Of a stretch of 64,000 nt of DNA, positions 7,818 to 60,383 are shown piece after piece. A model generated the notes under the pieces. That model ran no database searches and had not been told where the DNA came from. It saw only the letters and a program-made list of their open reading frames with translations. Position 1 is the stretch's first letter. The number at the start of each line of letters is the position of its first letter. The DNA is taken from contig OX597823.1 in the NCBI GenBank assembly GCA_951406725.2, positions 101,556,001 through 101,620,000 of the forward strand, given 5' to 3'. This DNA comes from Octopus vulgaris. Taxonomy: Eukaryota. Position numbers and translations under genes: made by a program.

Positions 7818-7982
7818 AGTTTCTTTATTGGCCACACAGGGCTGCACACAGATGGGACAAGTTACAAGGTAGAGCTTTTCTTTTGGGGGATGAAAAAAAA
7901 CAAAAACAAAAGAAAAAAAAACAAAAAAGGGGTGGCGTAGGTTTTCGATCAAGAGGGATCGTAAAAGGGAAGAAAAGAACAA
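7818..7982 (-). mobile_element. Tx1-like LINE, 3'UTR-only copy (heavily 5'-truncated)
   Basis: Nearly identical to 26568-26731 (3' end of copy B); flanked by GATA repeats on both sides. Confidence 0.85.
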
Positions 7983-11536: not shown

Positions 11537-11837
11537 TAGATAGATAGATAGATAACTTTTTATTGTAGCCACACAGGGCTAAACACAGAATAAAAATGGA
11601 CGAAATACAATGTAGAATTTTTTCTTTTCGAGGTGGGATGGGTGGGGCACAAAAAAATGTTTGATCAATAGGGATCTGTGGGTTTTGTGGTGTATAAAAA
11701 AGCAATATATATATATAAGGTTCACAGTTTAGGTGTAGCCTTGGAAAGAAAAACCTACAAAAAAGACCAAGGTCACCTCAGGCAGTTCGAAAATGAACAC
11801 ATGAGTAAGTCGCCTTACTTCTCGTTGTCTCTTTTGG

Positions 11838-14800
11838 TTACAGATTTATGCTTAAAATAGTGTCGGCTTTCATACTGACCATTTTTGCCACTTTTACCCA
11901 CTTTTTATTAAAACATTCGTTCGACAAAGCCTTCCTCTCTATTCTCACCCTCCTTTTCAAGTGGTACTTGAAAAAGTTGACGAGAGACTGACCAGAGAGG
12001 AAGGTGTTTGTTTGCAGTCCTTTCAAACGCGTCCACCACACACATTATTTCGCCATAGCCATCAGCGTAACGAAAACCGTTTTCCCTTCCCGTTTAAAGG
12101 AAGGTGGTGGAACAATATTCACGATAGACTCGGCCGATAGGCGGGCCCGACCTACACGTGACAACAGCTGTTCGACGAAGGTCCACAGCTCTGAAATATC
12201 TGGACACTGCATGAGTGCGTGCAGAACGGTTTCGTCGCTCTGACCGCATCTCGGGCAGGTCGGTCCGGTGATGGTTTTCGAACCGTGCCTGTAGCTCTTC
12301 TCTCGAACAGGTAGTGCGTCTCGATAGCACTGTCAAGCCAGGGATTTCTGGAAGTTATCCATAGGCCCCGGCCCGAAGGTCGTCCTGAACAGGCGGGTTA
12401 GGAATTTCTCGTCGTCGCCCAGGTTTTCCCCCTGTGTGTCGTCGGACCTCCCCTCCACTAGTCCTCTATAGAACGCTTTAGTCGTTTGTAAGTTGCACAA
12501 GTTTGACCCCGGTCGGCAGAGCTGCTGTAGAGCTCGGTCCCAATCGCCCAGTTTCGGTCTCTTCTTGATCCACGTTTGCAGTTCGGTCAGTGAGACGAGC
12601 TGCGGGAAGGCGCGCCTAACAAACGGCGCCCACACCTGTTCACCGTCGTCGATGAAGTTCCAGAGATGTCGCAGTCTAAGCGCATGCCTGCGCATCATCA
12701 ACCACGGCATGCCCAGTCCTCCATTCAACGGATGTTGACAGCAAATGGACTTCCTCACCATCGGAACGCCACCCTTCCACAGGAAGCGGAAGAGTATGCG
12801 TTCAAGTTTGGTGATGGTGGCGTCGGGACAAGGTACGACGGTCAGGCGGTAATCGATGACGGATGCGATGTACGCGATCGCCACCTCCGCCCGGCCTTTT
12901 AGGGATTGCTTCCTCTCAGCCCATTGCTGGGTGAGGGTGGCCAGCCTAGTCGTTATTTCGCCCCAGTTCTTCTCCATTTGGAGGTCTGGACCGAACCAGA
13001 CCCCGAGCAATTTAACCGGTCCGTCCGTCCAGCGTCCCACTACTGAGCCGCAGTCGGACGGCATGGGCTTGCTTCTCCAGGACCCGAGAAGCAAACCCAC
13101 TGACTTTTCCGGGTTAATCTTCGCTCCCGTCACCGTTTCGTATTTTCTTAGTGTCTCGCCTATCATCTGGATGTGATTGTCGCTCGACACTATGACGGTG
13201 ACATCGTCCGCATATGCCGACACGCTCGTCCTGCAACCCAGTTCCCGTGGGATGCCCCTCAGTGTCGCCAGCTTCCGCAGTAGCGGCTCGAGAGTCAATA
13301 CATACAGAAGCGCCGACAGGGGACACCCCTGACGGACCGAACGCGTGATGTCAAACTGTTTCAACAGGTGACCGTTCACCCGAATCACCGATCGGATGCC
13401 GCTATACAAGGCAGCGATCCAACCGCAGAAGACGGGACCGAAGCCAGCCGCCAAGTACCGATGGTCGACCCTATCGAAGGCTTTAGACTGATCCAAATTG
13501 ATCAGCGCCCCACCCATGCCAGGATCCTTAACTACCCTGTCCACAACGTAGCGCATCAGATGGAGGTTGTCATGTATGGTTCTGCCCGGCACGGCGCATG
13601 TTTGCGCCCTGTCGACCAGTTTACCAATGACAAGCGCCAACCTCTCGGCTATTACTTTGGCCAGAATTTTCAAATCTGCGTTGAGCAGAGTGATGGGCCT
13701 GAAAGTATCTATAAAATTCCCCTTGTTTGGGTCTTTCTTCAGCAACGTCACTGCACCACGGCTCACGAAACGCAGGATTCTCCCGTTTTGTTGCCAGTTG
13801 CAGTAGACTGATGCCAAGAGGTCGCCAAACAAGTCTGGCATTTGACAATACAGCTCATAGGGTAAACCATCCAATCCAGGCGACTTATCCCTCGCGCAGC
13901 CCGCTATCGCATCTCGCACGTCAGCGGCTGTGATGGGACTTTCACAACACTCCACTTCTCTTGCCGAAAGCCGCGGCAGGTCGGTCAAGTAGGCAATGAA
14001 ATCCATCCCGCGTTCCGACCCACCACTCGCACCAAACAGTCGAGCAAAGTGCTGTTGAAAGGCCTCACACATCCTTTCGGGTTCGAGTAAACTGCATCCC
14101 TGTTGATCTATTAGAAACCGAATGGTGGCTCTGTTGCCACGCTGCGCCTCCGCTACCCGGGCCTCTCGCGCAGCTTCGATCCCTTCGTTCCTTAAGGCAC
14201 GCATTTTAGCTCTGACGACGCAACCTTCGTGCTTGGCGTTGAGGTGTTGGTCGAGGACCATCCTCGCAGCCAGCACGTTGGTTGCGCCGCCAGTGGTAAG
14301 TGCCTCTTCTAGTTTCTTAACCAGGTCTCCCTCTACTCTGTTTCGATCTATCGCTAATTCCTTGCTAAACCTAATTGATTCCGATTTTATTGCCATTTTC
14401 AGGGCGTACCACCAGCGGTTGTTAACGACGGCTACCGTCAGCGCCCTCTTAATTAACTCGCTAATCCGGTTCCTGTAAACCTGTCGCGCTAAGTGCGACG
14501 TGTTCAGTTTCCAGTAACCGGGACCCTGCCTATGAGTTTTATCCAAGTCGAGCGTACACGTCACAAATTTGTGATCTGTGTAGCTGACTATTTTAAATTG
14601 TGGACATCCTACACTATCCCTATCCGCTGTCCTTTATAGAATTCTATCTAGATAAGATCTCGACGATCCAAGCGGTTTGTCCAAGTCCACGTTGGCACGT
14701 TCGGATGGTCGAGTCGGAACCTGTCAGACAAATGGAAACGTTTCAGTAGGTCTTTGAGGCACTTACACCCCCTTCTATTCCTATCCATTCCCACATAATC

Positions 14801-15250
14801 TAGATGCGTGTCCAAGGTAGCGTTCCAATCCCCTACTAACAGTAAAGGTCTAGACGTACTCAGGAAAACCTCTAGACGTCTGAAGAAATCCGCCCGACCC
14901 GTTAAGGACGGTGCATAAACTGCCATCAGACGGAATGCACACCCATTTCTGCCATCCACGTCCAAGACAACCAGCCTACCCTCCGGGTCTAGGAATATTG
15001 TTCTTACTTTTACATTTAGACTCTTTCGAAAAAGCACCGCGGTACCTCCACCACCCATGTTCGGCAGACAGGGAGAAATATAAATGTCAAATTGTTTGCC
15101 AAACATGGACGCGAGTGCCCGCGTCTTGCTGAGTCTGGTTTCACTGATAGCTACTATATCCACGTTCAGTGACTTGATGTCGTTTAGAAGGTAACCTTGC
15201 TTCCAAGCCGCCGCCAAGCCACGCGCATTCACACAACCTAATTTAAGCAT
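11838..15250 (-). pseudogene. Tx1 ORF2 of copy A: APE endonuclease + reverse transcriptase + C-terminal zinc finger, disrupted
   Basis: MLKLGCVNARGL, ISETR, YAPS, GDWNA, YTDHK; PGLDG, FRPITLLN, LDQSKAFDRV, VRQGCPLS, YADD; CPRCG...HALMQC; broken by stops/frameshifts near 14640, 12333 and 12040. Confidence 0.9.
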
Positions 15251-15317
15251 AATTGACGTTTACGAAAATTGTGTTTCATACACAAACATTGGAAGAGACA
15301 AGAGGCAAGAGGGAAGG

Positions 15318-17196
15318 TCACTTACTCATTTCGAAAGTTTCATTTTTTTCTTCTTCTTTTGTAGTGACTTTGATGAGGTGTTTGTATAGTTTTTGGGAGT
15401 GGAATCGTTGAAACCCGCCTACCGCATTTGGAAATATTATTTTCAGTGTATGATGTTGTGTTTGTGTTATGTGTACAATTTTTATATGCTTCGGTGGTGT
15501 GGTGCGAGGATGATTTTTTGTCTTAAAGTCATCTTCACAGATGTCCGTGTTGGATACAATGTAATCCATAAATTTTTTTTATTGTCTGTGTCTATTGCAG
15601 TTAGTTGTGTGTGTGGTTTTTGCGGGTTCATTGATTTTTTGATTGTCTAAGGGGATGCTGTACGAAGTTAAATATCTCCCTGCTTTACTTCCTTGTTTGG
15701 TGGGCTTTTTTTATCTTTTCCTTTTACCCCCTGTGGCTATTTGCCATTCCGTCGAACTTTCGTCGTCCGACGAATCAGAAGGGAGTAAAGGCAAAGCATT
15801 TGTGTTAATATGTATGCTTGAAGAAATTGTTGATGTTTTGTGCGGTGTTTGTGTTGTTATGGTGTTAGGGGTAGAATTTGTCTTCTCGTCACTGTTTTCT
15901 GTCTTTTTAATTGTCGTCCTCGGTGTTGGTGTTGGTCTATCTTTTAGTTCAGCACGTTGAATTGGTTGCGTCGTCAACGGTGATTGTGTTGGTACTGTTT
16001 CTTTTCTTGGTGATGTTTTTGGGGTTTGTTTGCTGGTTTGTTGTTTTTCTTGGCATTGTTCCATAATTGAGTGTGTTGGTGTTGGTGTTGGTGTTGGCAA
16101 CAAGGGTTTTTTTTTATTTGTTTTCTGATTTGTTCTTTCTTGTTTTTTCTGTGCTAGAGCGCACTTGGCAATTAAATGTTCTGGGCTGCCACAGTTGTAG
16201 CATCTAGGCTTTTTGCCTTCTGCCACAACATATAGGCTTTGCCCATTTTCTAAGTGGATCCTATCGGGTAGGTTCTCGATAGAGGCCCCCTCAATCTGGA
16301 TTGTCACTACTATTGTTTTTCCACCCCAATTGTCGTTTAGGTACACGGCGGTTTCTAAAATATTGATCTTTTTTTAAATGGTAACTGATTGCCCCTGTTA
16401 TCCATTTGTTCGGGATCTCGGGGGCTACATTTTTAATCGTAATTCTACTCACTCTCTGGCCTTTGAAATAAGGTACCATTTTGATATCATCATTTTCCAA
16501 AGACTCGGTAGAGTGAGCTTTTGCCACTTCCTGTTAGAGAAGCGGACCACTACTGAGTTAAACTGGGGACCCCAGTTTATATATTCTTTTTTTTCATTAT
16601 GTTTTTTGAAAATTTTTCTATATCCGTTTTTGTAATCTGTTCATTTTGTTTTCTCTTATAATTTTATATATAATTGTCTTATTTTCTATTTGTTCCTTTA
16701 TGTGTTGAGGTGTATGCAGCACTAAATCTTGCCCACGGGTTGTAAAGAGTGCTCTCGTTTCTTTTAGCTCTTCATTTGTAAATGTTACTATTTCTTTCTT
16801 CTGAGGCAGAGTGTCAGCGAAATTTACTGGTGTTGTTGATTTTTTTATATTAACATCTTCACTATTAGATAGTTCATTTTTATTGTTGTTCTTGTTGTTG
16901 TTGTTTTTGTTAATAGTATTCGGGTGAGTTTAATTTTTATCATTTATGTTGGTCGTGGTTGTAGTGGTGGTGGAGGTGTTGGTGGTAGCAGTAGTAGTCT
17001 CGTTGTTGTTGTTGTTAGTGGTGGTGGTGGTGGTGACTGGGCTGTTACCGCAAGTGGTTGCAGCGTTCACTACCACGTCATTCAGGTTTGCACTTTGCGT
17101 GCATACGTTCTTTTTGTCTCCTAGCGTTTCCAGACTAGGAAAATGGTGGTCCATAAAAGAACGCGACCAGCGTTCTACAATAAAATTTCTCGACAT
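15318..17196 (-). pseudogene. Tx1 ORF1 (gag-like) of copy A, disrupted
   Basis: MSRNFIVE start, Thr/Asn-rich region, NFADTL..., CYNCGSPEHLIAKC knuckle, WQIATGGKRKR, C-terminal HPRTTPPKHIKI domain. Confidence 0.85.
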
Positions 17197-17393
17197 TTTT
17201 TAATGTGGAGAAGAAAATTACACAAATTAAATAGGGTTGAAACTGCCCCTAGGGGCGAATTCCTCCCTTGGAAAAGCACTCCAACGAAAGTTGGGTGCCT
17301 TACACACCTTATTTACAAAAATGTACACAAAATATGGGCTATAAATAGTCAAAATAAACGATTACCTTCGGAGCCGAGATGACAGCACGTCCG

Positions 17394-18740: not shown

Positions 18741-19116
18741 CTCTTTTACTTGTTTCAGTCATTTTGACTGCGGCCATGCTGGAGCACCGCTTTTAGTCGA
18801 GCAATTCGACCCCAGGACTGATTCTTTGTAAGCCTAGTACTTATTCTATCGGTCTCTTTTGCTGAACAGCTAAGTGACGGGGACGTAAACACACCAGCAT
18901 CGGTTGTCAAGAAATGCTAGGGGGACAAACACAGACACACAAACACACATACATATATATATATATACATATATACGACAGGCTTCTTTCAGTTTCTGTC
19001 TACCAAGTCCACTCACAAGGCTTTGGACGGCCCGGGACTATAGAGGAAGACACTTGCCCAAGATGTCACGCAAAGGGACTGAACCCGGAACCATGTGGTT
19101 GGTTAGCAAGCTACTT
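18741..19116 (-). mobile_element. tRNA-derived SINE, 3' portion (interrupted by the 19117-21338 insertion)
   Basis: Minus strand has B-box GGTTCAGTCCC, body, internal (TA/TG)n and tail gactgaaacaagtaaaagag; uninterrupted head at 38133-38297. Confidence 0.85.
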
Positions 19117-21338
19117 TATTTCAAAACATTTGCCATAAAGGCAGTACACAGATTAAGTTAGCTTTGCGGGCTGGACGAGGACATTAATGAGGTGAATGAT
19201 AATGAAAGAAAGATGATAAGGATGGAAGAAGACAAAAAGCGCCCGCCGGCTTTCGCTTCTCTAAAACATTGTTCTTTTTAAAGATAAACACAAAACGAGG
19301 TATTAAACCTCTTACAATTTTTCCAATTTTTGGACTTAGCAGTCCATTATTAATACAAAACGAGGTATTAATCCTCTTACAATTTTTCAATTTTTGGACT
19401 TAAGTCCATTACTAATAATACATATCGTCCTCGAAATAGCTTGTGCCCGCGCCCTCCACCATCAACCACGCCTCCCTCAGAACGTAATCAAGTTCCGAGT
19501 TTGCGTCGCCCGGGACCAAGTTATAATCTTCATTGAGCTCCTTTAGCCCAAGCGTCACGTCGAACGCCACGGCCTCCACAGCTACCTGCGGAGGCCATTC
19601 GGGGTCCTGTGTGAAGGCTAAAGGTGCTCCCTTGTAGTGCTCTTCCATCACTTTTTCAATTTCTCCTCCTCTATAGAAGAGGACCAATACGTTCAGTTCT
19701 TTCGTTGGCGGCACAGTTCCCGCCAACGGTATTCCTTCTCTTGTCGGTGGCACAACCCCAACCGACGTAGTTCCGGGACATTCCGGTGCTACACTGACAG
19801 CCGGTAATGTCCCGTTTTTCTTCCTCTTTTTCTTTTTTTTCCCTTTTCAACTGAGGGAGGGTGCGTCTCCTCCGTGGCTGGAAGATTCGCCTTCCTCTCC
19901 TCATCCCTATTATCCTTTGGTGAGCACCCATTGTTGCTCACCTTCCTCTTCGGCCTCTGTTTGAGGAGTCCTCTGCTTTCTCGGCCGTTGTCGTTCCCTC
20001 TTCTAGAGGGGTTTTACTTAACTGTTCCGGGATCCTATTTTGTTCCCGAGGACAGTTCTTCTTTATGTGGCCGGACTCCAAGCACCGATGACACTTAGGG
20101 GGGCGACCCTCAAGCATCACCGGGTACCTGCACCCGGCTATTTTCAAAAAATCTGGAAGAACCAGATTGGCTGATTGGGTCCACAGGGTCAAAATTGCTT
20201 TTGACCCAACCCAAGCAGCCGTAGGAAGAACTTTTACATTGAAGAGCTTAGTTTCGCTGTCACCCAGACTCCGGCGGATAGTCTCCTCTATCCACTCGGG
20301 TTCTATGTCGGGTGGTAATCCGCATATCCAAGCTTTCATCAATTTCTTTTTTTGTACGTGGGCAGGAATAAGATTTCCTTACCCTCCAGGGGTTTGCTAG
20401 CAAATTTGCAAGCCTCTTCAGGGGTGTCAAATAGCAACCACACCGTTGCATATTTGACACCCCTGGAAATGAATTTAATTGTTGGCAAATACTCTTCCAA
20501 CTCCTCCTCAATTGCCGTCTTTTCGAATAAGGCGATGGTGTCGAGTGCCTTGGAGTAGGTTCTCAACACCACCGTCCTATCTTCACGGTCTTTTAACCAC
20601 TTTTTAGGTGGTATGATTTCCCACTCCAAAATTTTGTTATTTTTCATTGCCATGTTTTTTTTTTAAATATATTCAAATTAAACTAAAAAAGCCGGAAGAA
20701 AAAAGTTCAAAAGTTCAAATAAAATTTGATAGATTTTTGGAAAAACAAAAAGGAGAAAGCACAACAGAAGGGAAGAAATCAACGGAAAGTCGCAATAAAG
20801 AAAAAAAACAAAATGAAGTTCAATGAAGTTCAAAAGAAAGTTAATAAACAGAAAAAACACAGCAAAAATATTCTGGCCTTGCGGTACTCCCGGCCTGGGT
20901 TGAACCTGGAACGCCGCAACTGCAACACAACCTCCACAAAAATGGATCCGAAAGGTAATCCAATAGTGGCTTATTTTTATAATTTTTTGCGAAGTAGTAG
21001 TTTTCACAATTCATAAAAGTTCTTCACAGCACAATACAATTCTCACAATTACGTGAGAAAAATATTTACTCACTTTATCGAAGACGGATACGCCCCCAAA
21101 AATTTTCTCAGCGAGAAAAATATATTTGCCACATGTCGGCAGAATCAGAATTCTGAATCCAGTAGGACTTCCTGCCTGTAAAAAACAATTCTCAACAAAA
21201 ACTCCGACTGGACCCAGAAAACAGAATCTTACCTTACATGGGGCTTCCAAAGTTTTCAATTCAAGACGGCTTCAATAGCACATCTTCACCGCTTCAGTGC
21301 CAAACACAACACTGTCTCGCACATGCGCAGAAGCAACC
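19117..21338 (-). mobile_element. ORF1-only (HAL1-like) non-autonomous Tx1-related retroposon, 2.2 kb
   Basis: Perfect 15 bp TSD GTTAGCAAGCTACTT at 19102-19116 and 21339-21353; single gag-like ORF; no EN/RT; Tx1-like 3' stem-loop. Confidence 0.85.
19412..20653 (-). pseudogene. Tx1-type ORF1 protein (putative RRM-like region + CCHC zinc knuckle), frameshifted
   Basis: DRTVVLR...KYATVWLLFDTPEEA...FLPTYK...GLPPDIEPEWI...WVGSK...EGRPPKCHRCLESGHIKKNC aligns by eye with ORF1 of copies D/E (KRTIL...QFNTVVVRFHNQEEA...IPYYR...NVPPEIPPKWI...WVGKK...DGRRPRCYICGSEQHLKKDC). Confidence 0.8.
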
Positions 21339-21376
21339 GTTAGCAAGCTACTTACCACACAGCCACTCCTGCGCCT
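21339..21376 (-). mobile_element. tRNA-derived SINE, 5' head fragment (A-box)
   Basis: Minus strand AGGCGCAGGAGTGGCTGTGTGGTAAGTAGCTTGCTAAC continues seamlessly into 19101 once the insertion is removed. Confidence 0.85.
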
Positions 21377-24133: not shown

Positions 24134-24360
24134 GGCGGCGAGGTGGCAGAAACGTTAGCACGCCGGGCGAAATGCGTAGCCGTATTTCGTCTGCCGTTAC
24201 GTTCTGAGTTCAAATTCCGCCGAGGTCGACTTTGCCTTTCATCCTTTCGGGGTCGATTAAATAAGTACCAGTTACGTACTGGGGTCGATATAATCGACTT
24301 AATCAGTTTGTCCTTGTTTGCCCCCTCTATGTTTAGCCCCTTGTGGGCAAGAAAGAAATA
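24134..24360 (+). mobile_element. Full-length tRNA-head, Nin/Deu-domain SINE with Tx1-like tail
   Basis: Head TGGCAGAAACGTTAG...GAGTTCAAATTCC; Nin core GCCTTTCATCCTTTCGGGGTCGATTAAATAAGTACCAG; 26 bp TSD (24108-24133 / 24361-24386, 2 mismatches). Confidence 0.85.
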
Positions 24361-26567: not shown

Positions 26568-29557
26568 AGTTTCTTTATTGGCCACACAGGGCTGCACACA
26601 GATGGGACAAGTTACAAGGTAGAACTTTTCTTTTGGGGGATGAAAAAAACAAAAAACAAAAGAAACAAACAAAAAAAGGGGTGGCGTAGGTTTTCGATCA
26701 AGAGGGATCGTAAAAGGGAAGAAAAGAACAAAAAAATAAATAAATAAATAAAATAAAAAAGAAAAAAGAAAAATAAAAAAAAGAAAAGGAAAAGGAACAA
26801 AAGAAAAGAGAAATGAAAAAAGAAGAAAAAAGGGGAAAAAAGGGGGAAGAGGAAAAAAAACGATCAATAGGGATCGTGTATCACAGTGTTATGATAGATG
26901 GTGTAAAGGGGAAAGCAAGTAAGGTTTATCCGTGGGAAGAAAAGCCTACGAAAAAGACCACGGTAACCTTGGTCAATATTGTTATATGTTACCACATTTG
27001 TTTGCAAGTGGGTAACCCTCTGTTTTCAATTTCTGGGTTCATAGGATTATGCTCACGTCATTCATACGTGCCATCCTTGCTACATTCACCCATCTTTTTT
27101 TAAAACATTCGCTAGACAAAACTTGCCTCTCTACTTTCACTTTCCTTTTCAAGTGGTACTTGAAGAAGGTGATGAGAGATTGACCAGAGAGGAAAGTGTT
27201 TGTCTCCAATCCTTTCAGACGCGTCCACCAGATACATTCTTTCACCATAGCCACAAGGATGATGAAAATAGCTCTTCCTTCCCGTTTGAAGGAAGGAGGC
27301 GTGACAATATTGACGATAGACTCAGCTGATAAACCGACTCGTCCCACACGTGACAGCAGTTGTTCGACATAAGCCCACAGGTCGGAAATTGTTGGACACT
27401 GCACGAGGGCGTGCAGAACGGTTTCGTCGCTCTGACCGCATCTCGGGCAGGTCGGCCCCGTGTTTCTCGAGCCGTGTCTGTACAGCTTATCCCGAACGGG
27501 TAGCGCTTCTCGGTAGCACTGCCAGGCCAGGGATCTCTGGAAGTTGTCCATGGGCCCTGGCCCGAAAGTCGTCCTGAACAGGCGGGTCAGGTACTCCTCG
27601 TCGACGTCCCGGTTCGCCCCGAGCTCGTCGTCGTACCTCCCCTCCACTAATCCCCTATAGAATGCTTTGGTTGTGTTGAAGTCACTCAAGGTCGCCCCAG
27701 GACGGCAGAGTTGCTTGAGAGCAACGCGACACTCGCGGTGCCATTCGCCCTTCCTCGGCCTCTTTTTGATCCACGACTGCAGTTCGGTCATGGAGACGAG
27801 CTGCGGGAAAGCGTGCCTCACAAACGGCGACCACACCTGTTCACCGTCGTCTACGAAGAGCCTGAGATGTCGCAGTCTCAGCGCGTGTCTGCGCATCATC
27901 AACCACGGCATGCCCAGCCCTCCTTTTAACGGGTGTTGACAGCAAATGGATCGCCTGACCATCGGGACGCATCCTTTCCACAAGAAGCGAAAGAGAATGC
28001 GTTGTAGTTTGGTGATGGTAGGGTCGGGACAAGGCACGACGGTCAGGAGGTAGTAGATGACGGACGCGATGTACGTGTTCGCCACCTCCGCCCGACCTTT
28101 CAGGGACAGTTTCCTCTCGGCCCATTGCCGGGCGAGAGTGACCACCCTACTCGTTATCTCGTTCCAGTTCTTCTCCACTTGGAGGTCCGGACCAAACCAG
28201 ACCCCGAGCAACTCAACCGAGCCGTCGGTCCAGCATCCCACGGCGGAGGTGCTGGTGGACGGCATGGGCTTGCTTCTCCAGGTGCCTAGTCGCAAGCCCA
28301 CTGATTTTTCCCGGTTGATTTTCGCTCCTGTCACCGCTTCGTAGTTTTTCAGTGTCTCGCCGACCTGCTCGATGTGCTCGTGGCTAGACACTATGATGGT
28401 GACGTCGTCCGCGTATGCAGACACGCTCGTCCTGCATCCCAGTTCTCGCGGGATGCCCCTCAAAGTTGCCAGCTTCCGCAATAATGGCTCGAGAGTCAAT
28501 ACGTATAGAAGCGACGAGAGGGGGCATCCCTGACGGACCGAACGTGCGATGTCGAAGGGTCTCGATAGATGTCCATTCACGCGAATTACCGAACGTATGC
28601 CTCTGTACAAAGCGGCTATCCAGCCGCGGAAGACGGGACCGAAGCCAGCCGTTCTGAGGACCGCCTCCAAGTATCGATGGTCCACCCTATCGAAAGCTTT
28701 CGATTGATCCAAATTGATCAGCGCCCCACCCATGCCAGGTTCGTTAACTACCCTGTCTATGATGTAGCGCATCAGGTGGAGGTTGTCATGGATGGTCCGG
28801 CCCGGTACGGTGCATGTTTGCGCCTTGTCGACCAGTTTCTCGATGACAAGCGCCAACCTCTTGGCTAGCACCTTAGCCAAAATTTTCAAATCTGCATTAA
28901 GCAGAGTGATGGGCCTAAAGTTATCTATTACATTTCCCTTGTTTAGATCTTTCTTCAGCAGTGTTACGGCTCCTCGGCTCACAAAACCAGGAATGCTCCC
29001 GTTTTGCTGCCAGTTGCAGTACACCGCCGCCAAGAGATCTCCAAACAAGTCTGGCATACAATTGTAAAGCTCGTAGGGTAGACCATCCAAACCCGGTGAT
29101 TTGTCCCTCGAGCATTCTGCCATCGCGTCCTGCACTTCCGCCGCCGTGATGGCACCTTCGCAGCACCCTGCCTTTCTTGTCGAGAGTCGTGGTAGGCTAT
29201 GTAGGTAGGCACTGAAGTCCACCCTACGTTCTTGCCCTCCACTCGTCCTGAACAGTCGGGCAAAAAGCTGCTGAAAGGCCTCACACATTTTACTTGGCTC
29301 GAGCAATTCGCGCCCCTGTTCATCTACCAGGGACCGAATGGTGGCTTTGTTGCCCTGTTGCGCCTCTGCCACCCGGGCCTCTCTCGCGGCTCCAACACCC
29401 TCGTTCCTTAGAGCACGCATCCTAGCTCTGACAGCACATCCTTCGTGTTTGGCGTTGAAGTGTTGGTCGAGGGCCAACCTCGCCGCCAAAACGTCGGATG
29501 CGATGCCGCTTCTAGCTTCTTAACTAGCTCACACTCTACTCTATTTCTATCTATGGC
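26568..29557 (-). mobile_element. 5'-truncated Tx1-like LINE, copy B
   Basis: RT ORF plus 3'UTR ending AATAAAGAAACT; GATA arrays on both sides; probable TSD TAC(AC)AGATA at 26560-26567 / 29558-29567. Confidence 0.92.
27039..29489 (-). CDS. Tx1 ORF2 C-terminal 816 aa (RT + zinc finger), uninterrupted but lacking endonuclease and native start
   Basis: PGLDG, FRPITLLN, DQSKAFD, QGCPLS, YADD, CPRCGQSDETVLHALVQC in one open frame. Confidence 0.85.
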   Translation of the reverse strand: MAARLALDQHFNAKHEGCAVRARMRALRNEGVGAAREARVAEAQQGNKATIRSLVDEQGRELLEPSKMCEAFQQLFARLFRTSGGQERRVDFSAYLHSLPRLSTRKAGCCEGAITAAEVQDAMAECSRDKSPGLDGLPYELYNCMPDLFGDLLAAVYCNWQQNGSIPGFVSRGAVTLLKKDLNKGNVIDNFRPITLLNADLKILAKVLAKRLALVIEKLVDKAQTCTVPGRTIHDNLHLMRYIIDRVVNEPGMGGALINLDQSKAFDRVDHRYLEAVLRTAGFGPVFRGWIAALYRGIRSVIRVNGHLSRPFDIARSVRQGCPLSSLLYVLTLEPLLRKLATLRGIPRELGCRTSVSAYADDVTIIVSSHEHIEQVGETLKNYEAVTGAKINREKSVGLRLGTWRSKPMPSTSTSAVGCWTDGSVELLGVWFGPDLQVEKNWNEITSRVVTLARQWAERKLSLKGRAEVANTYIASVIYYLLTVVPCPDPTITKLQRILFRFLWKGCVPMVRRSICCQHPLKGGLGMPWLMMRRHALRLRHLRLFVDDGEQVWSPFVRHAFPQLVSMTELQSWIKKRPRKGEWHRECRVALKQLCRPGATLSDFNTTKAFYRGLVEGRYDDELGANRDVDEEYLTRLFRTTFGPGPMDNFQRSLAWQCYREALPVRDKLYRHGSRNTGPTCPRCGQSDETVLHALVQCPTISDLWAYVEQLLSRVGRVGLSAESIVNIVTPPSFKREGRAIFIILVAMVKECIWWTRLKGLETNTFLSGQSLITFFKYHLKRKVKVERQVLSSECFKKRWVNVARMARMNDVSIIL

Positions 29558-29562
29558 TACAC

Positions 29563-31466: not shown

Positions 31467-31690
31467 AAGTGACGAACCGGCAGAATCGTCACAGCGCCAA
31501 ACCCAAATGCTTTGTGGCATTTCTTCCGCCATAAAGTTCTAAATTCAAATGTCTCAGGAGTCGATTTTGCCTGTCATTCTTTCGAGGTCAATAAAATAAG
31601 TACCAGTTGAGCACTGGGGGTCAATATAATCAACTCACCTCTTACTTCGAAATTGCTGGCTTTCTGCCAAAATTTGAAACCAATATTATA
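31467..31690 (+). mobile_element. Nin-domain SINE (tail type aaattgctggc...aaaatttgaaacc)
   Basis: Head ggcagaatcgtcacagcgcc; core gcctgtcattctttcgaggtcaataaaataagtaccag. Confidence 0.7.
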
Positions 31691-32989: not shown

Positions 32990-33149
32990 TGAAGGAGGCA
33001 AGCTGGCAGAAACGTTAGCACGCCGGGCGAAATGCTTAGCGGTACTTCGTCTGTCGTTATGCACTGGGATCGATGTAATCGACTTAATCCGTTTGTCTAT
33101 TCTTGTTTGTCCTCTCTGTGTTTAGCCCCTTGCGGGTAGTAAAGAAATA
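32990..33149 (+). mobile_element. Internally deleted Nin-SINE with Tx1-like tail
   Basis: Same head and tail as 24134-24360; 17 bp TSD GGTTATATACGATATAA (32973-32989 / 33150-33166). Confidence 0.8.
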
Positions 33150-43384: not shown

Positions 43385-43989
43385 GCTATTTTTATCATAC
43401 TTGTGGCTATGGCGAAAGAATGTATCTGGTGGACGCGCCTGAAAGGATTAGAGACAAACACTTTCCTCTCTGGTCAATCTCTCATCAACTTCTTCAAGTA
43501 TCACTTGAAGAGGAAAGTGAGAGTAGAGAGGCAAGTTTTGTCTAGTGAATGTTTTAAAAAAAGATGGGTGAATGTAGCAAGGATGGCACGTATGAATGAC
43601 GAAGCCACCTTGACTATGATTCTATGAACCATAAAAATTAATACAGAGAGTTGCTTATTTGCAAAAAAAAAAAAAGAAATATAACATGTGACTTCATTGA
43701 CCGAGGTTACCGTGGTCTTTTCCGTAGGCTTTTCTTTCCACGGGTAAACCTCACCTGTCCTCCCCTTTACACTTCATATTGACATTTCTGTGATAACGAT
43801 CCCTATTATTCACTTTTTTTTCTCTCCCCCCCTTTTTTTAACCCCTCCCCTTTTTTTGTCCTTTTTCTTTCCTTTTACGATCCCTTTTGATCGAAAACCA
43901 CCACTCTCCTTTTTTTACCCCCAAAAGAAAAGCTCTACCTTGTAATTTGTTCTATCTGTGTGCAGCCCTGTGTGGCTAATAAAGAAACA
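43384..43989 (+). mobile_element. 5'-truncated Tx1-like LINE, copy C
   Basis: AIFIILVAMAKECIWWTRLKGL...KKRWVNVARM as in copy B; 3'UTR ending AATAAAGAAACA; (TATC)n on both sides. Confidence 0.9.
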
Positions 43990-44230: not shown

Positions 44231-44648
44231 CTTTTGATAGTATTCGTTGACAGATCGACTCGTAAGTTAACTACTTATTTTATTGTGTTTCTCGAAAAGT
44301 TTCGTTGTAAATTTTGCACACGGAGTGTGTAAGACACCCAGCTGTCGTCTGGGTGTGTTTTCCGGGGGGATTATGCCCCTAGGGGCATTTTCAGCCTCAA
44401 ATATATTTCACAATTTTGGCTGCAATAACTTGTTTTTTTAACATAATGTCGGCGAAGCGTTTCTAGTAAATTACGAGCGCTGTTCTCTTTCTTCTCGTTT
44501 GTATCCATTGTTTACGTTCCACATTGTCGTAGTGTTGTGACTTTCCAAACGCTCAACTTTCGTTTGAGCCTGTGTTAAATATAGAAATCGCCCATAAGGG
44601 CATTTTCAATCTATTTTTATTTTTTTCTCTTGAAACAAAGAAATAATA

Positions 44649-47600
44649 ATGTCAAGAAATCTTATAGTGGAAAAATATTCTGCTATGTTTTCTGAAGAAA
44701 ACTTTCCCAGTTTGCAAAATACAATCGACAAACGCGCTGACAGTAAAATGGATAATACTCAAACCACCACCACCACCACCACCACCACGTCATCCACTAC
44801 CTCAACTACCAACAACAACAACAATGACAACAAGAATAACAACAATTGCGACACCATTTCGATATCTGCTGCCTCGGCTGTCTCTTCTGCCACTGACACC
44901 ACCACCAACAACAAAAACAACAACAACAACTCCGTTCAGACCTGTTTTACTCCAACAACAAAAACTGAAGTAAATAAACAAAAAACTGTAACCACCAAAC
45001 AAATTGACAAAAGCTACCCGACTACAGGGATAAATTATGAAAATAATTTTCCACCCCTTCCTACTTGCACAATCGAACCAAACACCAATTTTACAAACTG
45101 CAGCCAACAACAACATCACCACCAGCAACAACAATAACAAAACAACAACAAATTTCGCTGAGGCGATTAAAGAAAAAAAAAACAACAATATATTTTACGG
45201 CTCAACAAATACAGGACACGAACATTACAATAACAGAATTAGATGGTATAGTGAAGATAAACATACCAGAAGAAATATTGGAAGATGAAAAAAAAAGAAC
45301 AATTATTTATAAAATAATTAATAAGAAAACAAAAAGCCCAGAGAAGGCTACCACAAGCAAAATAGAAAAATGCTTGAAACCCATCTGGAACTACAAAGAC
45401 TATGTAACCTGGTGGAACAAGTTCGCCCACATACAAGTGGTTTTCCACACCGAAGAGTTAGCTAGACGTTTCTCAACGCTAACTCTTCATTCAGATGAAC
45501 TCCAACTTACACCAAGCTATCGGGGACAGAAAGTGACTAAGATCACTTTAAACAATGTCCCCAAAATAGCTAATAATCTATGGCTTGTAAAGGCCTTATG
45601 TGTAAAAATGACAAATTTTACTATTTTAGAAACCACGGTCACGGAGCATAAAAATAAAAACTCGACAAACGCGCTGACAGTGAAATGGATAATACTCAAA
45701 CCACCACCACCACCACCACCACCACCACCACCACCACCACCACCACCACCACTACCACCACCACGTCATCCACTACCTCAACTACCAACAACAACAACAA
45801 TGACAACAAGAATAACAACAATTGCGACACCATTTCGATATCTGCTGCCTCGGCTGTCTCTTCTGCCACTGACACCACCACCAACAACAAAAACAACAAC
45901 AACAACTCCGTTCAGACCTGTTTTACTCCAACAACAAAAACTGAAGTAAATAAACAAAAAACTGTAACCACCAAACAAATTGACAAAAGCTACCCGACTA
46001 CAGGGATAAATTATGAAAATAATTTTCCACCCCTTCCTACTTGCACAATCGAACCAAACACCAATTTTACAAACTGCAGCCAACAACAACATCACCACCA
46101 GCAACAACAATAACAAAACAACAACAAATTTCGCTGAGGCGATTAAAGAAAAAAAAAACAACAATATATTTTACGGCTCAACAAATACAGGACACGAACA
46201 TTACAATAACAGAATTAGATGGTATAGTGAAGATAAACATACCAGAAGAAATATTGGAAGATGAAAAAAAAAGAACAATTATTTATAAAATAATTAATAA
46301 GAAAACAAAAAGCCCAGAGAAGGCTACCACAAGCAAAATAGAAAAATGCTTGAAACCCATCTGGAACTACAAAGACTATGTAACCTGGTGGAACAAGTTC
46401 GCCCACATACAAGTGGTTTTCCACACCGAAGAGTTAGCTAGACGTTTCTCAACGCTAACTCTTCATTCAGATGAACTCCAACTTACACCAAGCTATCGGG
46501 GACAGAAAGTGACTAAGATCACTTTAAACAATGTCCCCAAAATAGCTAATAATCTATGGCTTGTAAAGGCCTTATGTGTAAAAATGACAAATTTTACTAT
46601 TTTAGAAACCACGGTCACGGAGCATAAAAACTGGGTGGGAAAAAAAGTAGAATTTCTTCTACATATACATCAAGAAGACATAAAAAAAATACCCACCCAG
46701 ATATGTGTATCAGACGATCACAAGTTGTATGTGGTCGTCGATGGCAGAAGACCACGTTGCTACATATGCGGCAGTGAGCAACACCTAAAAAAAGACTGCA
46801 AATCTGCCGCAAGAAAACAACAGCAACAACAATAGCAGCCGGAAAAAACCCCCAGATAAACCAGGTTTACTACCCACACCACGTTTTGCAGGAACAAATC
46901 TCACCAACCAAACAACCACACCAACTGCAGCACCAAGAACAGAAGCAACATCACCAACAACAACAACCAAGAATAAACCAACTCCCAAACCAAGGACATC
47001 TGCCAAAAAGACACTCAGAGAAAATGAAGAAACAATTACAACTCCAAATCCCCACAAAATTGAAACCCCAAACAACACAAAATACCCACACCCCACCTCC
47101 AAAGCCGCATACACCACAACCAAACGCTCACCAACCAACACCAACAACAAAATCAACACAGTCGACAATAGACCCCAATATTTTCCCTCTTCAGGCTCTG
47201 ATTCCTCTGATTTGTCATTAGACGAAGAAGACACGGAAGATTGGCAAATAGCCACAGGGGGGGAGAAGAAAAAGGGGAAAAAAAGAAAAGAAAAAATAAC
47301 ATATAAAGCAGGAAGATACACCACTCCCGAAACAAAAACATCCACAGAAAACAAACACATCAACACAAACACACCATCATCAAACCCCCCAACAATGTTG
47401 ACAGCCATAAACACAAACAACCACGACCTAATGGAACACATTAGGTCAAACACCAACATAACTGAAAACGACATAAAAACAAGTAACCATCCACACACAA
47501 CACCACCACAACACATTAAAATAATACACGTAACACAGAACACATACAGCACCCTGAAATCTCTTTACCCTGATGCAGTAGGGATAGTTCAAAAGTATTC

Positions 47601-47676
47601 ATCGAAAAAACTGTACAAAAGCCTCATAGAAGAAGACCGTGAGGTGAAAGACAAAGGACTTTCGAACAACAAGTAA
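44649..47676 (+). pseudogene. Tx1 ORF1 of copy D, partly duplicated and frameshifted
   Basis: MSRNLIVE..., CYICGSEQHLKKDC, WQIATGGEKKK, C-terminal HPHTTPPQHIKI domain. Confidence 0.85.
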
Positions 47677-47742
47677 CCTTTTCTCTCTCTCTTTCCTTTT
47701 TTGCACTTTCTTTTCGTGTGTAAAACACAATTTTATCGGAAC

Positions 47743-50700
47743 ATGCTCAGAATAGGCAGTATAAATGTACGTGGTTTGGGGTCGCCTTGGAAACAAGGCT
47801 ACCTGTTAAATGACATCAAATAACTAAATCTGAATATCATAGCCATCAGTGAGACCAGACTCCACAGCTTGCGGGCACCCCAGCACATTTTCGGTACACA
47901 TTTCAACATTTATTTTTCTCCGTGTCTACCGAGAATGGGCGGAGGTGGCACCGCGGTGCTTATCCGGAAGAGTCTGGATCTCAAAGTAAGAGCAAATTTC
48001 CTAGACCCGGAGGGTAGGCTGGTCGTTTTGGATATCGATGGCAGCAATGAGTGTGCTTTTCGACTGATAGCAGTTTATGCTCCGTCCTTAACAGGCCGAC
48101 CAGATTTCTTTCGACGTCTAGAGTCTTTCATGGGAACGTCTCGTCCTTTACTTTTAGTGGGGGGTTGGAATGCCACCATGGACACGCATCTAGACTACGT
48201 GGGCAGAGATAGCAATAGAAGAGGATGCAAATGCCTCAAAGACCTGCTCAGACGTTTCCAACTGTCTGACAGATACCGACTGGACCACCCGAATGTGCCA
48301 ATGTGGACATGGAGTAACCGTATCGGATCGTCCAGATCATACTTAGATAGAGTATTCTGTAGGACAATAGATAAAAATAGTGTAGGTTGTCCACAATTTC
48401 ATATAGTCAGTTACACAGATCACAAGTTTGTGACTTGTACACTTGACTTAGATAAGACACATAGGCAGGGTCCTGGTTACTGGAAACTGAACGCGTCTTT
48501 TACAGCACGACAGGTTTACAGGGACCGGATCAGCACATTAGTTAAGAGAGCTTTGACGGGTACCATCATCAACAACAGATGGTGGTATGCCCCAAAAAAA
48601 GCAATTAAAGCAGAATCAGTCAGATACAGTAGAGCCCTAGCATTAGACCGAAATAGAATAGAGGGAGAATTAGTTAAGGTTTTAGAAGAGGCACTTAGAA
48701 CTGGCATCGCGTCCAACGTGCTGGCGGCGAGATTGGCCCTCGACCAACACCTCAACGCCAAACACGAGGGATGCGTTGTCAGAGCTAGGATGCGTGCTCT
48801 GAGGAACGAAGGAGTTGGAGCCGCCCAAGAGGCCCGAGTGGTGGAGACGCAACGAGGCAACAGAGCCACCATCAATTCTCTTATAGATGAACAGGGGCGC
48901 GAATTGCTCGAGCCTAAAAGGATGTGTGGGGCTTTTCAACAACACTTCACCAAACTGTTTGGGACAAGTGGTGGGTCAGAACGCAGAGTGGACTTTAGTG
49001 TCTACCTGCATGCCTTGCCACGACTCTCAGCAAGAGAGGTGGAGTCTTGTGAAAGGCCTATCACAACTGCGGACGTACAGGATGCGATGGGGGGCTGCGC
49101 GAGAGACAAGTCACCAGGCTTGGATGGTCTGCCCTACGAACTTTATTGTCATATGCCAGATTGTTTGGAGGCGTCTTGGCAGCTGTCTACTGCAACTGGC
49201 AGCAAAACGGGAGTATTCTTGCTTTTGTAAAGCGAGGAGCAGTGGTACTGATTAAGAAAGACCCAAACAAGGGAGACGTCATAGATAATTTCAGGCCCAT
49301 TACACTCTGCTCAACGCAGATTTGAAAATTTTGGCCAAGGTGTTAGCCGAGAGGTTGGCGCTTGTCATCAAGAAACTAATCGACAAGGCGCAAACATGCG
49401 CCGTGCCGGGTAGAAGTATTCATGACAACCTCCATCTGATGCGCTACATCATAGACAGGGTAGTTAAGAATCCTGGCATGGGTGGGGCGCTGATCAATTT
49501 GGATCAATCAAAAGCTTTCGATAGGGTAGACCATCACTACTTGGAGGCTGTCCATAAAGCGGCTGGTTTCGGTCCAGTTTTCCGCTCAGTAGTTCGCGTA
49601 AATGGTCATCTATCCAGATCTTTTAACATCATGCGTTCGGTTCGTCAGGGATGCCCCCTCTCATCGCTGTTGTATGTATTCACTCTTGAGCCACTACTGC
49701 GGAAACTGGCGACACTGAGGGGCATCCCACGAGAGCTGGGATGCGGGAGGAGCGTGTCTGCATACGCGGATGACGTCGCCGTCATAGTGTCGAGCTACAA
49801 GCACATCGAGCTACAAGCACATCGAGCTGGTCGGCGAGACACTAAAAGAATACGAAGTGGTAACGGGAGCAAAAATTAACCGGGAAAAGTCAGTGGGCTT
49901 GCGGCTCGGCACCTGGAGAAGCAGGCCCATGCCGTCCAACAGCGTCTCCATCGTGGGACGCTGGACGGACGGACCGGTTAAATTGCTCGGGGTCTGGTTC
50001 GGTCCGGACCTCCAAATGGAGAAGAACTGGGGTGAGATAACGACTAGGGTGGCTACTCTCACCCAGAAATGGGCTGAGAGAAAGCTATCCCTAAAAGGTC
50101 GGGCGGAGGTGGCGAACGCGTACATCGCATCCGTCATCGAGTATCGTCTGACCGTCGTGCCTTGTCCCGACCCTACCATCACCAAACTGGAACGTATACT
50201 CTTCCGCTTCCTGTGGAAGGGAAACGTTCCGATGGTTAGGCGATCCATTTGCTGTCAACACCCGCTAAATGGAGGGCTGGGCATGCCGTGGTTGATGATG
50301 CGCAGACATGCGCTGAGACTGCGATATCTCCGGCGCTTCATAGACAATGGTGAACAGGTGTGGTCGCCTTTTGTGCGGCTCGCTTTCCCGCAGCTCGTCT
50401 CCTTGGACGAACTACAGTCATGGATCAAGCAGAGACCGAGGCTAGGCGAATGGCACCGCGAGTGCCGCGTTGCTCTCAAGCAACTCTGCCGTCCGGGATC
50501 GAACTTGTGCGACTCCATCACAACAAAGGCATTCTATAGAGGATTAGTGGAGGGGAGGTGCGACGACGAACTCGGGCAGAGTCTGGGCGTCGACGAGGAA
50601 CACCTGACCCGCCTGTTCAGGACAACTTTCGGCCCGGGACCTATGAACAATCACCAAAGATCCCTGGCCTGGCAGTGCTATCGAGAAGCATTACCTGTTC

Positions 50701-51159
50701 GGGATAAGCTCTGCAGACACGGTTCCAGACACACTGGACCGACTTGCCCGAGATGCGGTCAGAACGACGAAACCATTCTGCACGCACTCGTGCAATGTCC
50801 AACCACTTCAGACCTGTGGGCTTATGCCGAACGGCTGCTGTCACGTGTGGGACGAGTCCGCCTATCGGCCGAATCTATCGTTAATTTATTGCTCCGCCCC
50901 CTTCCCTCAACCGGGAAGGCAAGGCAGTTTTCATCGTACGGGTGGCCATGGTGAAAGAATGTGTGTGGTGAACCCGAGCGAAAGGATTAGAGACAAACAC
51001 TTACCTCTCTGGCTCATCAACTTTTTCAAGTACCACTTGAAAAGGAAGGTGAGAATGGAGAGGGAAGTTTTGTCTCGCGAAAGATTCAAAAAAAGATGGG
51101 TGAATGTTGCAAAGATGGTGCGTGCGAGTGACGAAACCATTTTGAGCATGACCCTGTAA
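47743..51159 (+). pseudogene. Tx1 ORF2 of copy D (APE-RT-zinc finger), disrupted
   Basis: MLRIGSINVRGL, YLDRV, YTDHK, QGCPLS, YADD, CPRCGQNDETILHALVQC; stop at 47821 and several frameshifts, including a 16 bp duplication at 49795-49826. Confidence 0.9.
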
Positions 51160-53836: not shown

Positions 53837-53902
53837 CCTTCCCTCTTGCCTCTTGTCTCATTCAATGTAGTGTGTGAAACACAAATTTCTTAAACATCAA
53901 TT

Positions 53903-60340: not shown

Positions 60341-60383
60341 CGTCTGAATTATAACAATGATAATAATGATAATAATAATAATA

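What the first reader, a model, noticed from the sequence alone, without database searches (positions are those of the whole stretch)
19117..19160. One 3'-terminal stem-loop motif shared by LINEs, the ORF1-only element and SINEs
Seen on the sense strands: Tx1 C TCTGTGTGC-AGCC ctgtgt GGCT-AATAAAGAAAC; Tx1 A TCTGTGTTT-AGCC ctgtgt GGCT-ACAATAAA; ORF1-only TCTGTGTAC-TGCC tttat GGCA-AATGTTTTGAAATA, with a compensatory A-T to T-A swap at the stem base; Nin-SINE 33115-33149 TCTGTGTTT-AGCCC cttgc GGGT-AGTAAAGAAATA. Known: stringent LINEs recognise a 3' stem-loop that partner SINEs copy, whereas mammalian L1 relies on poly(A). Inference: this Tx1 lineage uses stringent 3' recognition and drives a three-tier system (autonomous LINE, ORF1-only element, SINE), none of which has a poly(A) tail here.
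Basis: partly seen in the sequence, partly recalled or inferred. Interest (0 to 1): 0.8.

Follow-up and report, generated by a model that had tools for sequence, protein, structure and literature searches.

The report
Octopus retrotransposons share a tail hairpin
In this octopus-like DNA, Tx1-type LINEs, short tRNA-like SINEs and a 2.2-kb element encoding only ORF1 all end in a related ~25-base motif, with a predicted small hairpin and no poly(A) tail; it is likely the signal the LINE reverse transcriptase recognises, but the two passenger elements are likely moved by sister LINE families, not by the TATC-targeting LINEs seen here.

Summary
The motif is real. It sits 10-16 nt from the 3' end of six Tx1-type LINE copies, two SINEs and a TSD-flanked ORF1-only element (19117-21338). 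None has poly(A). A profile trained on the six LINE tails ranks the ORF1-only tail next after the six training tails among 127,948 positions; a core covariance model agrees (E 0.008), but a 48-nt model misses it.

Better evidence came from three more SINEs with the same body and other tails. Their 4-bp stems fall in register, with 20 of 20 cells paired and 3 of 4 pairs changed on both sides.

The claim that these LINEs drive all three tiers is not supported. All 6 LINEs sit in (TATC)n, 0 of 3 passengers do; ORF1 is only ~25% identical and the loops differ.

Verdict: a likely stringent-type 3' signal in the Tx1 lineage, plus a probable HAL1-like element. No such Tx1 case turned up in ten literature searches; Repbase was not searchable. 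The scan's earlier notes held nothing similar.

The parts
19117..21338 (-). ORF1-only element, 2222 bp, inserted inside another SINE
   Evidence: 15-bp TSD; none of 11 ORF2 queries finds a remnant, best tblastn E 0.01; related sequence over its whole length in contigs of 3 runs
19128..19153 (-). 3'-terminal core of the ORF1-only element: TCTGTGT, then stem TGCC/GGCA (19131-19143) with a 5-nt loop
   Evidence: pair probabilities 0.69-0.87 in 150-nt context
19412..20653 (-). ORF1 (CCHC zinc knuckle, RRM-like), broken by at least two, probably three, frameshifts
   Evidence: zf-CCHC E 0.002, below the Pfam cut-off; 71-73% identical to O. sinensis LOC115225585; atlas look-alikes are CCHC/RRM proteins
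19102..19116 (.). 3' copy of the 15-bp TSD
21339..21353 (.). 5' copy of the 15-bp TSD
11555..17393 (-). LINE A1, full length (ORF1-CCHC, endonuclease, RT), in (TATC)n; motif at 11589
51474..57070 (+). LINE A2, full length, directly behind LINE B with only a short TATC run between; motif at 57037
44231..51456 (+). LINE B, full length, in (TATC)n; motif at 51417
26569..29562 (-). LINE C, 5'-truncated (RT + zf-RVT), in (TATC)n; motif at 26602
43390..43988 (+). LINE C, 5'-truncated, in (TATC)n; motif at 43955
7819..7981 (-). LINE C, about 160-bp 3' fragment, in (TATC)n; motif at 7852
24135..24360 (+). Full SINE with a LINE-like tail; stem GCCC/GGGC at 24336-24348; 24-bp TSD (1 mismatch)
32990..33149 (+).
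31468..31686 (+). Same SINE head and body, second tail type; stem TGGC/GCCA at 31657-31669; 13-bp TSD (1 mismatch)
58432..58628 (+). Same SINE head and body, second tail type; stem TGGT/GCCA at 58598-58610; 12-bp TSD (1 mismatch)
60144..60352 (-). Same SINE head and body, third tail type; stem AGGC/GCCT at 60157-60169; lies in ATT repeats, TSD ambiguous

Best explanation
The LINEs, SINEs and ORF1-only element share a short 3'-terminal motif with a predicted hairpin and no poly(A), which likely is the signal that Tx1-type ORF2 proteins bind to start reverse transcription, and the SINE and ORF1-only element are likely copied in trans by sister Tx1 families rather than by the TATC-specific LINEs in this window. 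Steps: (1) shown: the motif lies 10-16 nt from the 3' end of elements with 12-24-bp TSDs (SINEs, ORF1-only) or TATC flanks (LINEs). (2) Shown: the core is kept while the rest of the 3' UTR has turned over. (3) Predicted, with a few double-sided changes: a 3-4-bp stem with a 5-6-nt pyrimidine/GU-rich loop. (4) Inferred from L2/CR1 and maize L1 precedent: ORF2p binds the hairpin and primes at a fixed point behind it. (5) Inferred: the SINE took its tail from a Tx1 LINE; the ORF1-only element is an old HAL1-like family that lost ORF2 but kept promoter, ORF1 and tail. (6) Inferred from different insertion sites, loops and last bases: the driver is a less target-specific Tx1 family not present in the window.
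For: Core 87.5-96% identical across subfamilies A/B/C against 32-57% for their UTRs; ORF1-only core 71-75% while its UTR is at shuffle level (33-46% vs 42%). SINE-LINE similarity vanishes in 4 of 5 comparisons once the last 50 nt are removed. LINE-trained models retrieve the SINEs and the ORF1-only tail. In a whole-SINE alignment made without regard to structure, 20 of 20 stem cells pair, 3 of 4 pairs change on both sides, and 3 of 500 shuffles match; slid registers pair only 30-50%. With the ORF1-only tail added in a register I chose, 24 of 24 cells pair and 0 of 500 shuffles match. ORF2's best solved relative is human L1 ORF2p (E 7e-41, vs 6e-21 for R2). TATC flanks: 6 of 6 LINEs, 0 of 3 passengers; TATC arrays cover 1.5% of the window. 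The SINEs and the ORF1-only element end in GAAATA, unlike the LINEs. O. vulgaris has 80 L1-Tx1 families (PMC13282606 supplement). Shared targets were the argument for Tx1 partners of SINEU (PMC4494074).
Against: No functional data. The hairpin is only 3-4 bp and no tail folds better than shuffles; in 150-nt context its pairing probability is 0.00 for LINE A2 and 0.28 for C26. A loosely defined terminal 4-bp stem occurs in 9.5% of random window stretches and also in the unrelated Dong tail. Covariation rests on about 3 independent events in 5-6 related sequences, and the shuffle control ignores relatedness. On the nine-tail alignment in sequence register covariation is not significant (48-73 of 500). 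The 48-nt model misses the ORF1-only tail. No LINE with the ORF1-only element's ORF1, or with SINE tail types 2 and 3, was found. No listed contig bridges ORF1 to the tail.
Confidence: 0.5

Rival explanations
1. One reading: the TATC-targeting LINEs A/B/C themselves mobilise the SINE and the ORF1-only element. Their own targeting would come from read-through UAUC repeats on the LINE RNA annealing to nicked target DNA, which passenger RNAs lack.
For: The SINE tail matches A/B/C over about 45 nt, and LINE A and SINE 33115 share 14 identical bases through the 5' stem arm. LINE B and A2 stand in tandem with a short TATC run between them.
Against: 0 of 3 passengers lie in TATC. The endonuclease is thought to play a major role in microsatellite targeting (PMC3812793 passage). 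The ORF1-only loop differs and its ORF1 is about 25% identical to A/B ORF1.
Confidence: 0.15
2. The motif is inherited and kept for another reason, such as 3'-end formation or RNA stability (an AATAAA-like hexamer follows the hairpin). ORF2 is not stringent and the stem is incidental.
For: Weak folding; outer pair broken in 3 of 6 LINE copies; AATAAA directly follows the stem in LINE B and C tails. Crocodilian SINEUs, likely mobilised by Tx1, have poly(A) and no detected LINE-derived tail (PMC4494074).
Against: Copies end at a fixed point 5-6 nt behind the hexamer with no poly(A), closer than the usual 10-30 nt to a cleavage site (recalled figure). The SINEs keep the motif although a Pol III transcript should not need a Pol II poly(A) signal (inference). 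Double-sided stem changes occur.
Confidence: 0.2
3. The ORF1-only element is a one-off internal deletion of a separate, autonomous Tx1 family, so it simply carries its parent's tail and there is no third tier.
For: Only one copy is in the window. Contigs show both ORF1 and the 3' UTR in many variants, but no listed piece bridges them. ORF1 is frameshifted in this copy.
Against: No ORF2 remnant at all, so both breakpoints would have to fall in the roughly 70-nt ORF1-ORF2 spacer and the roughly 250-nt 3' UTR (sizes from A/B). The element has an intact 5' end and a perfect TSD. Depth has no gap from ORF1 to tail in 3 runs (30 of 30 bins covered).
Confidence: 0.15

Closest known systems
Stringent SINE/LINE tail pairs: UnaSINE/UnaL2, zebrafish ZfL2-1/ZfL2-2 (PMC4176376, PMC3747384)
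   Same: The SINE tail is homologous to a LINE 3' end; a conserved terminal stem-loop; no reliance on poly(A).
   Different: Those are L2/CR1-clade elements with tested ORF2 binding. Here the clade is L1/Tx1, the stem is only 3-4 bp, and nothing is tested. Table 1 of PMC3747384 lists no Tx1 partner and no mollusc pair.
Maize ZmSINE2/3 with LINE1-1_ZM, and Chlamydomonas SINEX-3_CR with L1-1_CR (PMC3472496)
   Same: An L1-clade LINE sharing a short structured 3' end with SINEs; in maize/sorghum, compensatory changes in the stem.
   Different: These are the only three L1-tail SINEs in that survey, all from plants or an alga, and their L1 lineages generally end in poly(A). This case is an animal Tx1-type lineage without poly(A), with a weaker hairpin (-5 to -7.5 kcal/mol for 8 of 9 tails vs -11 to -18).
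HAL1, HeT-A and Ag-Sponge: ORF1-only non-autonomous LINEs (PMC5786205, PMC5753468 passages)
   Same: 5' UTR + ORF1 + 3' UTR, no ORF2, TSD-flanked.
   Different: Reported from the L1, Jockey and CR1 clades. Tx1 is not named in that list. Family status here is likely but not shown.
SINEU with Tx1-Mar of crocodilians (PMC4494074)
   Same: Non-autonomous elements attributed to Tx1 machinery.
   Different: SINEU shares the target and sometimes the head with its Tx1, has poly(A), and no LINE sharing the SINEU-1 3' end was found. Here the tail is shared and the target is not.
Microsatellite-targeting Tx1 families Kibi (TC)n, Koshi (TTC)n and crocodilian (TTCC/TTTC)n (PMC3812793, PMC4494074)
   Same: APE-type LINEs inserting into microsatellites.
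   Different: The target here is (TATC)n, which is not named in the passages read.

Membership tests
L1/Tx1 clade LINE (A, B, C) | Two ORFs: ORF1 with CCHC knuckle; ORF2 with APE endonuclease, RT and C-terminal zinc motif | tested here: met
   Pfam zf-CCHC (just under cut-off), Exo_endo_phos, RVT_1, zf-RVT
L1/Tx1 clade LINE (A, B, C) | RT closer to L1 than to other clades | tested here: met
   Best PDB sequences are human L1 ORF2p (E 7e-41), then R2 (6e-21); atlas top cluster is named LINE-1 ORF2. Only L1 and R2 were available for comparison.
Tx1 clade specifically | RT groups with named Tx1 families in a phylogeny | not testable with these tools
   No homologue carries a clade name. CCHC-type ORF1 in non-mammalian animals is described as consistent with Tx1 (PMC5203782).
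Tx1 clade specifically | Target-specific insertion | tested here: met
   6 of 6 copies flanked by TATC on both sides
Stringent SINE/LINE tail pair | SINE 3' end homologous to a LINE 3' end | tested here: met
   E 1.8e-6 and 3.3e-5 with a LINE-trained model; 0 of 2000 shuffles
Stringent SINE/LINE tail pair | Conserved stem-loop with compensatory changes | tested here: inconclusive
   Positive across SINE tail types and the ORF1-only tail; not significant on the nine-tail sequence-register alignment; weak folding; few independent sequences
Stringent SINE/LINE tail pair | Same insertion signature as the partner LINE | tested here: not met
   For A/B/C as partner: 0 of 2 SINEs and 0 of 1 ORF1-only element in TATC. 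The partner is therefore not filed as A/B/C.
Stringent SINE/LINE tail pair | ORF2 binds the tail, and the tail is required for retrotransposition | not testable with these tools
   Needs an assay
HAL1-like ORF1-only non-autonomous LINE | ORF1 present, ORF2 absent, TSD-flanked, LINE-type 3' end | tested here: met
HAL1-like ORF1-only non-autonomous LINE | Multi-copy family with the same ORF2-less structure | tested here: inconclusive
   Many variant contigs over both ORF1 (70-97 contigs at 20139) and 3' UTR (55-91 at 19249) in 3 runs, with lower depth at the 5' end, but no listed piece bridges ORF1 to the tail; the fourth run was uninformative
HAL1-like ORF1-only non-autonomous LINE | ORF1 under purifying selection in the family | tested here: inconclusive
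   5 of 12 classifiable differences are synonymous, 1 of 13 not classified; most are probably this copy's own decay
Nin/Deu-domain tRNA SINE | tRNA-derived head and Nin central domain | not tested
No reference sequence was available. ARAGORN finds no tRNA in the window, and no Rfam match fell on the SINEs at 24135 or 32990.

The most novel reading that the evidence does not exclude
Octopus Tx1-type LINEs use a poly(A)-independent 3' hairpin code. A common short stem with family-specific loop and flanks has diversified across Tx1 families, and both one SINE body (three tail types) and an ORF1-only parasite have tracked those codes by tail exchange and compensatory change. This would be the first animal L1/Tx1-clade case of stringent recognition and of a Tx1-derived HAL1-like family, favouring stringency as the ancestral state of the clade that gave rise to human L1.
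Probability: 0.35. Interest if true: 0.7.

Novelty: new variant of a known kind. Interest (0 to 1): 0.5.

Why it matters
Whether the L1/Tx1 ancestor recognised a specific RNA tail or any poly(A) is an open question. It rests on three plant and algal SINEs (PMC3472496), and the one SINE class attributed to Tx1 has poly(A) and no detected shared tail (PMC4494074). An animal Tx1 lineage with a compact ~25-nt candidate signal, natural stem variants and two kinds of passenger gives ready-made mutants for a direct test. It also points to the partner clade of a SINE type in genomes where SINEs make up about 12% of the DNA (PMC13282606). The ingredients (tail-sharing SINEs, ORF1-only LINE derivatives) are known kinds, and the octopus families may already be described in Repbase, which could not be searched.

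Tried and rejected
No whole genome is held, so the genome-wide covariance scan was done on the 64-kb window only.

Collection scans gave nothing usable. The ORF1 relative scan of metagenome contigs had 595 pattern hits and 0 confirmed. The tail pattern gave 0 hits in viral contigs, 3 in metagenomes (no similarity to the window beyond the motif, GC 46-67%) and 2 in bacterial genomes (treated as chance, not examined further).

Read laying: run X21 covered only 8 of 30 bins and was dropped. The joint and loose-end tables were swamped by the host SINE (15 joints shown, 319 not), so the ORF1-to-tail junction could not be seen. None of the 40 variant rows shown (179 not shown) lies inside the hairpin.

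An extended lower stem pairing the TCTGTGT block with the A-rich end appears in several minimum-energy folds but has 82.5% cells paired against 80.9% in shuffles; not accepted.

Rfam gave only sub-threshold matches, mostly miRNA models on microsatellites, in 18700-34000. The 5' UTR of the ORF1-only element has no match in the window, and its 3' UTR outside the last 50 nt has no clear match to the LINE UTRs. No ORF1 relative fused to RT was seen among 13 of 47 hits scanned.

One intended negative control (the SINE tail at 60157-60169) scored as high as the ORF1-only tail. It proved to carry the hairpin and was moved into the finding; the other four controls scored at shuffle level under local alignment. 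Two of those four (the tails near 31657 and 58598) were nevertheless added to the finding for their stems.

Earlier scan notes: nothing by words or place, and only unrelated phage sirtuin notes by sequence. The HAL1 paper (Bao and Jurka 2010) is not held.
Full report
Setting. The window is repeat-rich animal DNA. The closest named proteins are from Octopus sinensis (71% to the ORF1-only protein) and Argonauta hians (63% to LINE C ORF2), so an octopod origin is inferred. No whole genome was held, so all DNA counts are for this 64-kb window plus one read-laying run.

Observation. Nine 3' ends carry the TCT(G/A)T(G/A)T-NN-(A/T)GCC...GG(C/T) core: six LINE copies (anchors 7852-, 11589-, 26602-, 43955+, 51417+, 57037+), two SINE copies (24326+, 33115+) and the ORF1-only element (19152-). 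None ends in poly(A). A two-block profile trained on the six LINE tails gives the ORF1-only tail 20.7 bits and the SINEs 20.1 and 19.6; the next window position scores 13.6, and 0 of 20,000 shuffles of the ORF1-only tail reach its score. That profile was designed after seeing the motif and ignores the loop. A 27-nt covariance model from the same six tails ranks the ORF1-only tail first among non-training hits (E 0.008), then the SINEs (E 0.09, 0.15). A 48-nt model finds the SINEs clearly (E 1.8e-6, 3.3e-5) but not the ORF1-only tail at E<=10. Plain local alignment is matched by 5, 19 and 5 of 2000 shuffles. So the SINE shares about 45 nt with the LINEs, and the ORF1-only element shares only the core.

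The LINEs. A1 (11555-17393, -), B (44231-51456, +) and A2 (51474-57070, +) are full length; three C copies are 5'-truncated. Pfam shows ORF1 zinc knuckles, an APE endonuclease, RT and zf-RVT, and the best solved relative is human L1 ORF2p. All six are flanked by TATC on both sides. This architecture and target specificity fit the Tx1 group (PMC5203782, PMC3812793, PMC4494074), but no tree with named references was possible. Between subfamilies the 3' UTRs are 32-57% identical and the 24-nt core 87.5-96%, which points to selection on the core.

The ORF1-only element. It spans 19117-21338 (-), has a perfect 15-bp TSD and interrupts another SINE; contigs of three runs show the uninterrupted host SINE. 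It has a 685-nt 5' UTR, a frameshifted CCHC-type ORF1 and about 290 nt of 3' UTR. Eleven ORF2 queries found no remnant (best E 0.01). Its ORF1 is 25-27% identical to those of A and B, which are 40% identical to each other, so it comes from a separate lineage. Its UTR is at shuffle level against the LINE UTRs while its core is 71-75% identical. Contigs from runs X2, X16 and X18 (three organism codes) cover 30 of 30 bins, with many variant contigs over ORF1 (97, 70, 73 at 20139) and the 3' UTR (91, 60, 55 at 19249). In X2, summed depth is 3,300-6,600 in the four 5'-most internal bins against 18,000-160,000 over ORF1 and tail, as 5' truncation would give; the tool warns that this depth is not a copy number. 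In two of the three runs most depth shows C just before the motif, as in LINE B and the SINEs. No listed piece bridges ORF1 to the tail, and X21 was uninformative. Family status is likely (my estimate about 0.7) but not shown.

Structure. The small hairpin is in the minimum-energy fold of 8 of 9 tails, but none folds better than shuffles. In 150-nt context its pairing probability ranges from 0.00 (A2) to 0.87 (ORF1-only). The SINE stem is shifted by one base. Better evidence came from three more SINE copies with the same head and body but other tails (31468-31686, 58432-58628, 60144-60352). A whole-SINE alignment made without structural input puts their stems in register with those of the two motif SINEs: 20 of 20 cells pair, 3 of 4 pairs change on both sides, 3 of 500 shuffles match, and slid registers pair 30-50%. 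Adding the ORF1-only tail in a register I chose gives 24 of 24 and 0 of 500. These five SINEs and the ORF1-only element have 5-nt loops of the form Y-T-T-(A/C/G)-Y; the LINEs have a 6-nt loop. The ORF1-only tail looks like a mix: the upstream block of the LINE type and downstream bases like SINE tail type 2. Caveats: this is about three independent events, the shuffles ignore relatedness, a loosely defined terminal stem occurs in 9.5% of random stretches and in the unrelated Dong tail, and the partner LINEs of tail types 2 and 3 are unknown and need not be Tx1.

Who drives whom. TATC flanks: 6 of 6 LINEs, 0 of 3 passengers (1 in 84 by my own Fisher arithmetic, and three of the LINEs form one cluster). 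The passengers have 15-24-bp TSDs and end in GAAATA; the LINEs end otherwise. Shared target preference was the argument that Tx1-Mar mobilises SINEU (PMC4494074), and the loop sets specificity in zebrafish L2 (PMC4176376). Both argue against A/B/C as the drivers, and O. vulgaris has 80 L1-Tx1 families to choose from. The binding and priming steps are inferred from other clades and untested.

Comparison with what is known. Tail-sharing SINE/LINE pairs are a textbook kind. A survey of 58 pairs found only three with L1-clade tails, in maize/sorghum and Chlamydomonas (PMC3472496), and its table lists no Tx1 partner and no mollusc (PMC3747384). ORF1-only derivatives are known from the Jockey, L1 and CR1 clades (PMC5786205). 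Ten full-text searches returned no report of a Tx1-derived SINE tail, a Tx1 ORF1-only family or this octopus motif. The library lacks most subscription papers, and Repbase/Dfam entries could not be searched, so prior annotation is possible.

What I saw of each paper. PMC3472496: parts 1-2 of 3 of the text. PMC4494074: parts 2-4 of 5. PMC3747384: passages and the first part of the figures/tables section. PMC4176376: abstract and Discussion. PMC13282606: passages and a supplement search. PMC4758252, PMC5786205, PMC5753468, PMC4824008, PMC5804259, PMC3812793, PMC5203782, PMC9115989, PMC8967140: passages only. PMC5135761: search listing only. Bao and Jurka 2010 and Ohshima and Okada 1994: not seen, cited through those papers. 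Supplements not read (the SINE/LINE table of PMC3472496, consensus sequences in PMC4758252 and PMC8967140) may bear on the novelty claim and on the Nin label.

Verdict. Observation confirmed; interpretation partly supported. A new variant of a known kind, interest 0.5; the bolder reading (a hairpin code across octopus Tx1 families, bearing on ancestral L1 stringency) has probability about 0.35 and would merit 0.7.

Noticed in passing
window 43339-57241: Three LINEs (C fragment, B, A2) stand head to tail, separated only by TATC runs. (TATC)n as a LINE target is not named in the passages read.
   Followed up: partly
window 44763-45654 and 45739-46630: A tandem duplication with 976-bp period, 99.9% identical over 892 bp, inside the ORF1 region of LINE B; a very recent event or an assembly artefact.
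   Followed up: no
window ~61374-63941 (+): A 5'-truncated RT element between (AAT)n arrays, likely Dong/R4 (TAA targeting per PMC3812793); RVT_1 and weak zf-RVT hits. Its tail is unrelated to the motif.
   Followed up: partly
window 21232-21176 and 21073-20683 (-): Splice-donor-like and acceptor-like sites in the 5' UTR of the ORF1-only element would give introns of about 57 and 390 nt. The O. sinensis relative has three protein accessions with one sequence, which might reflect UTR isoforms.
   Followed up: no
window 19290-19417: A 65-bp tandem duplication in the 3' UTR of the ORF1-only element; a contig joint at 19359-19291 suggests the unit number varies between copies.
   Followed up: no
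window ~24111-24384 and 32973-33166: The TSDs of both motif-bearing SINEs begin with GGTT, and in these two and the ORF1-only element the base before the 5' TSD copy is T; a possible insertion signature on a sample of three.
   Followed up: no
window ~18740-19116 and 21339-21377 (-): The host SINE of the ORF1-only element belongs to another, very abundant family (other pieces near 17544, 37407, 38107) whose tail lacks the motif; possibly the octopus CORE-SINE OR1/OR2 (recalled, not tested).
   Followed up: no
window 13435-, 28636-, 55735+: A 4-bp stem with a 5-nt pyrimidine loop resembling the tail hairpin recurs at the same place inside ORF2 of three LINE copies; probably coding conservation.
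   Followed up: no
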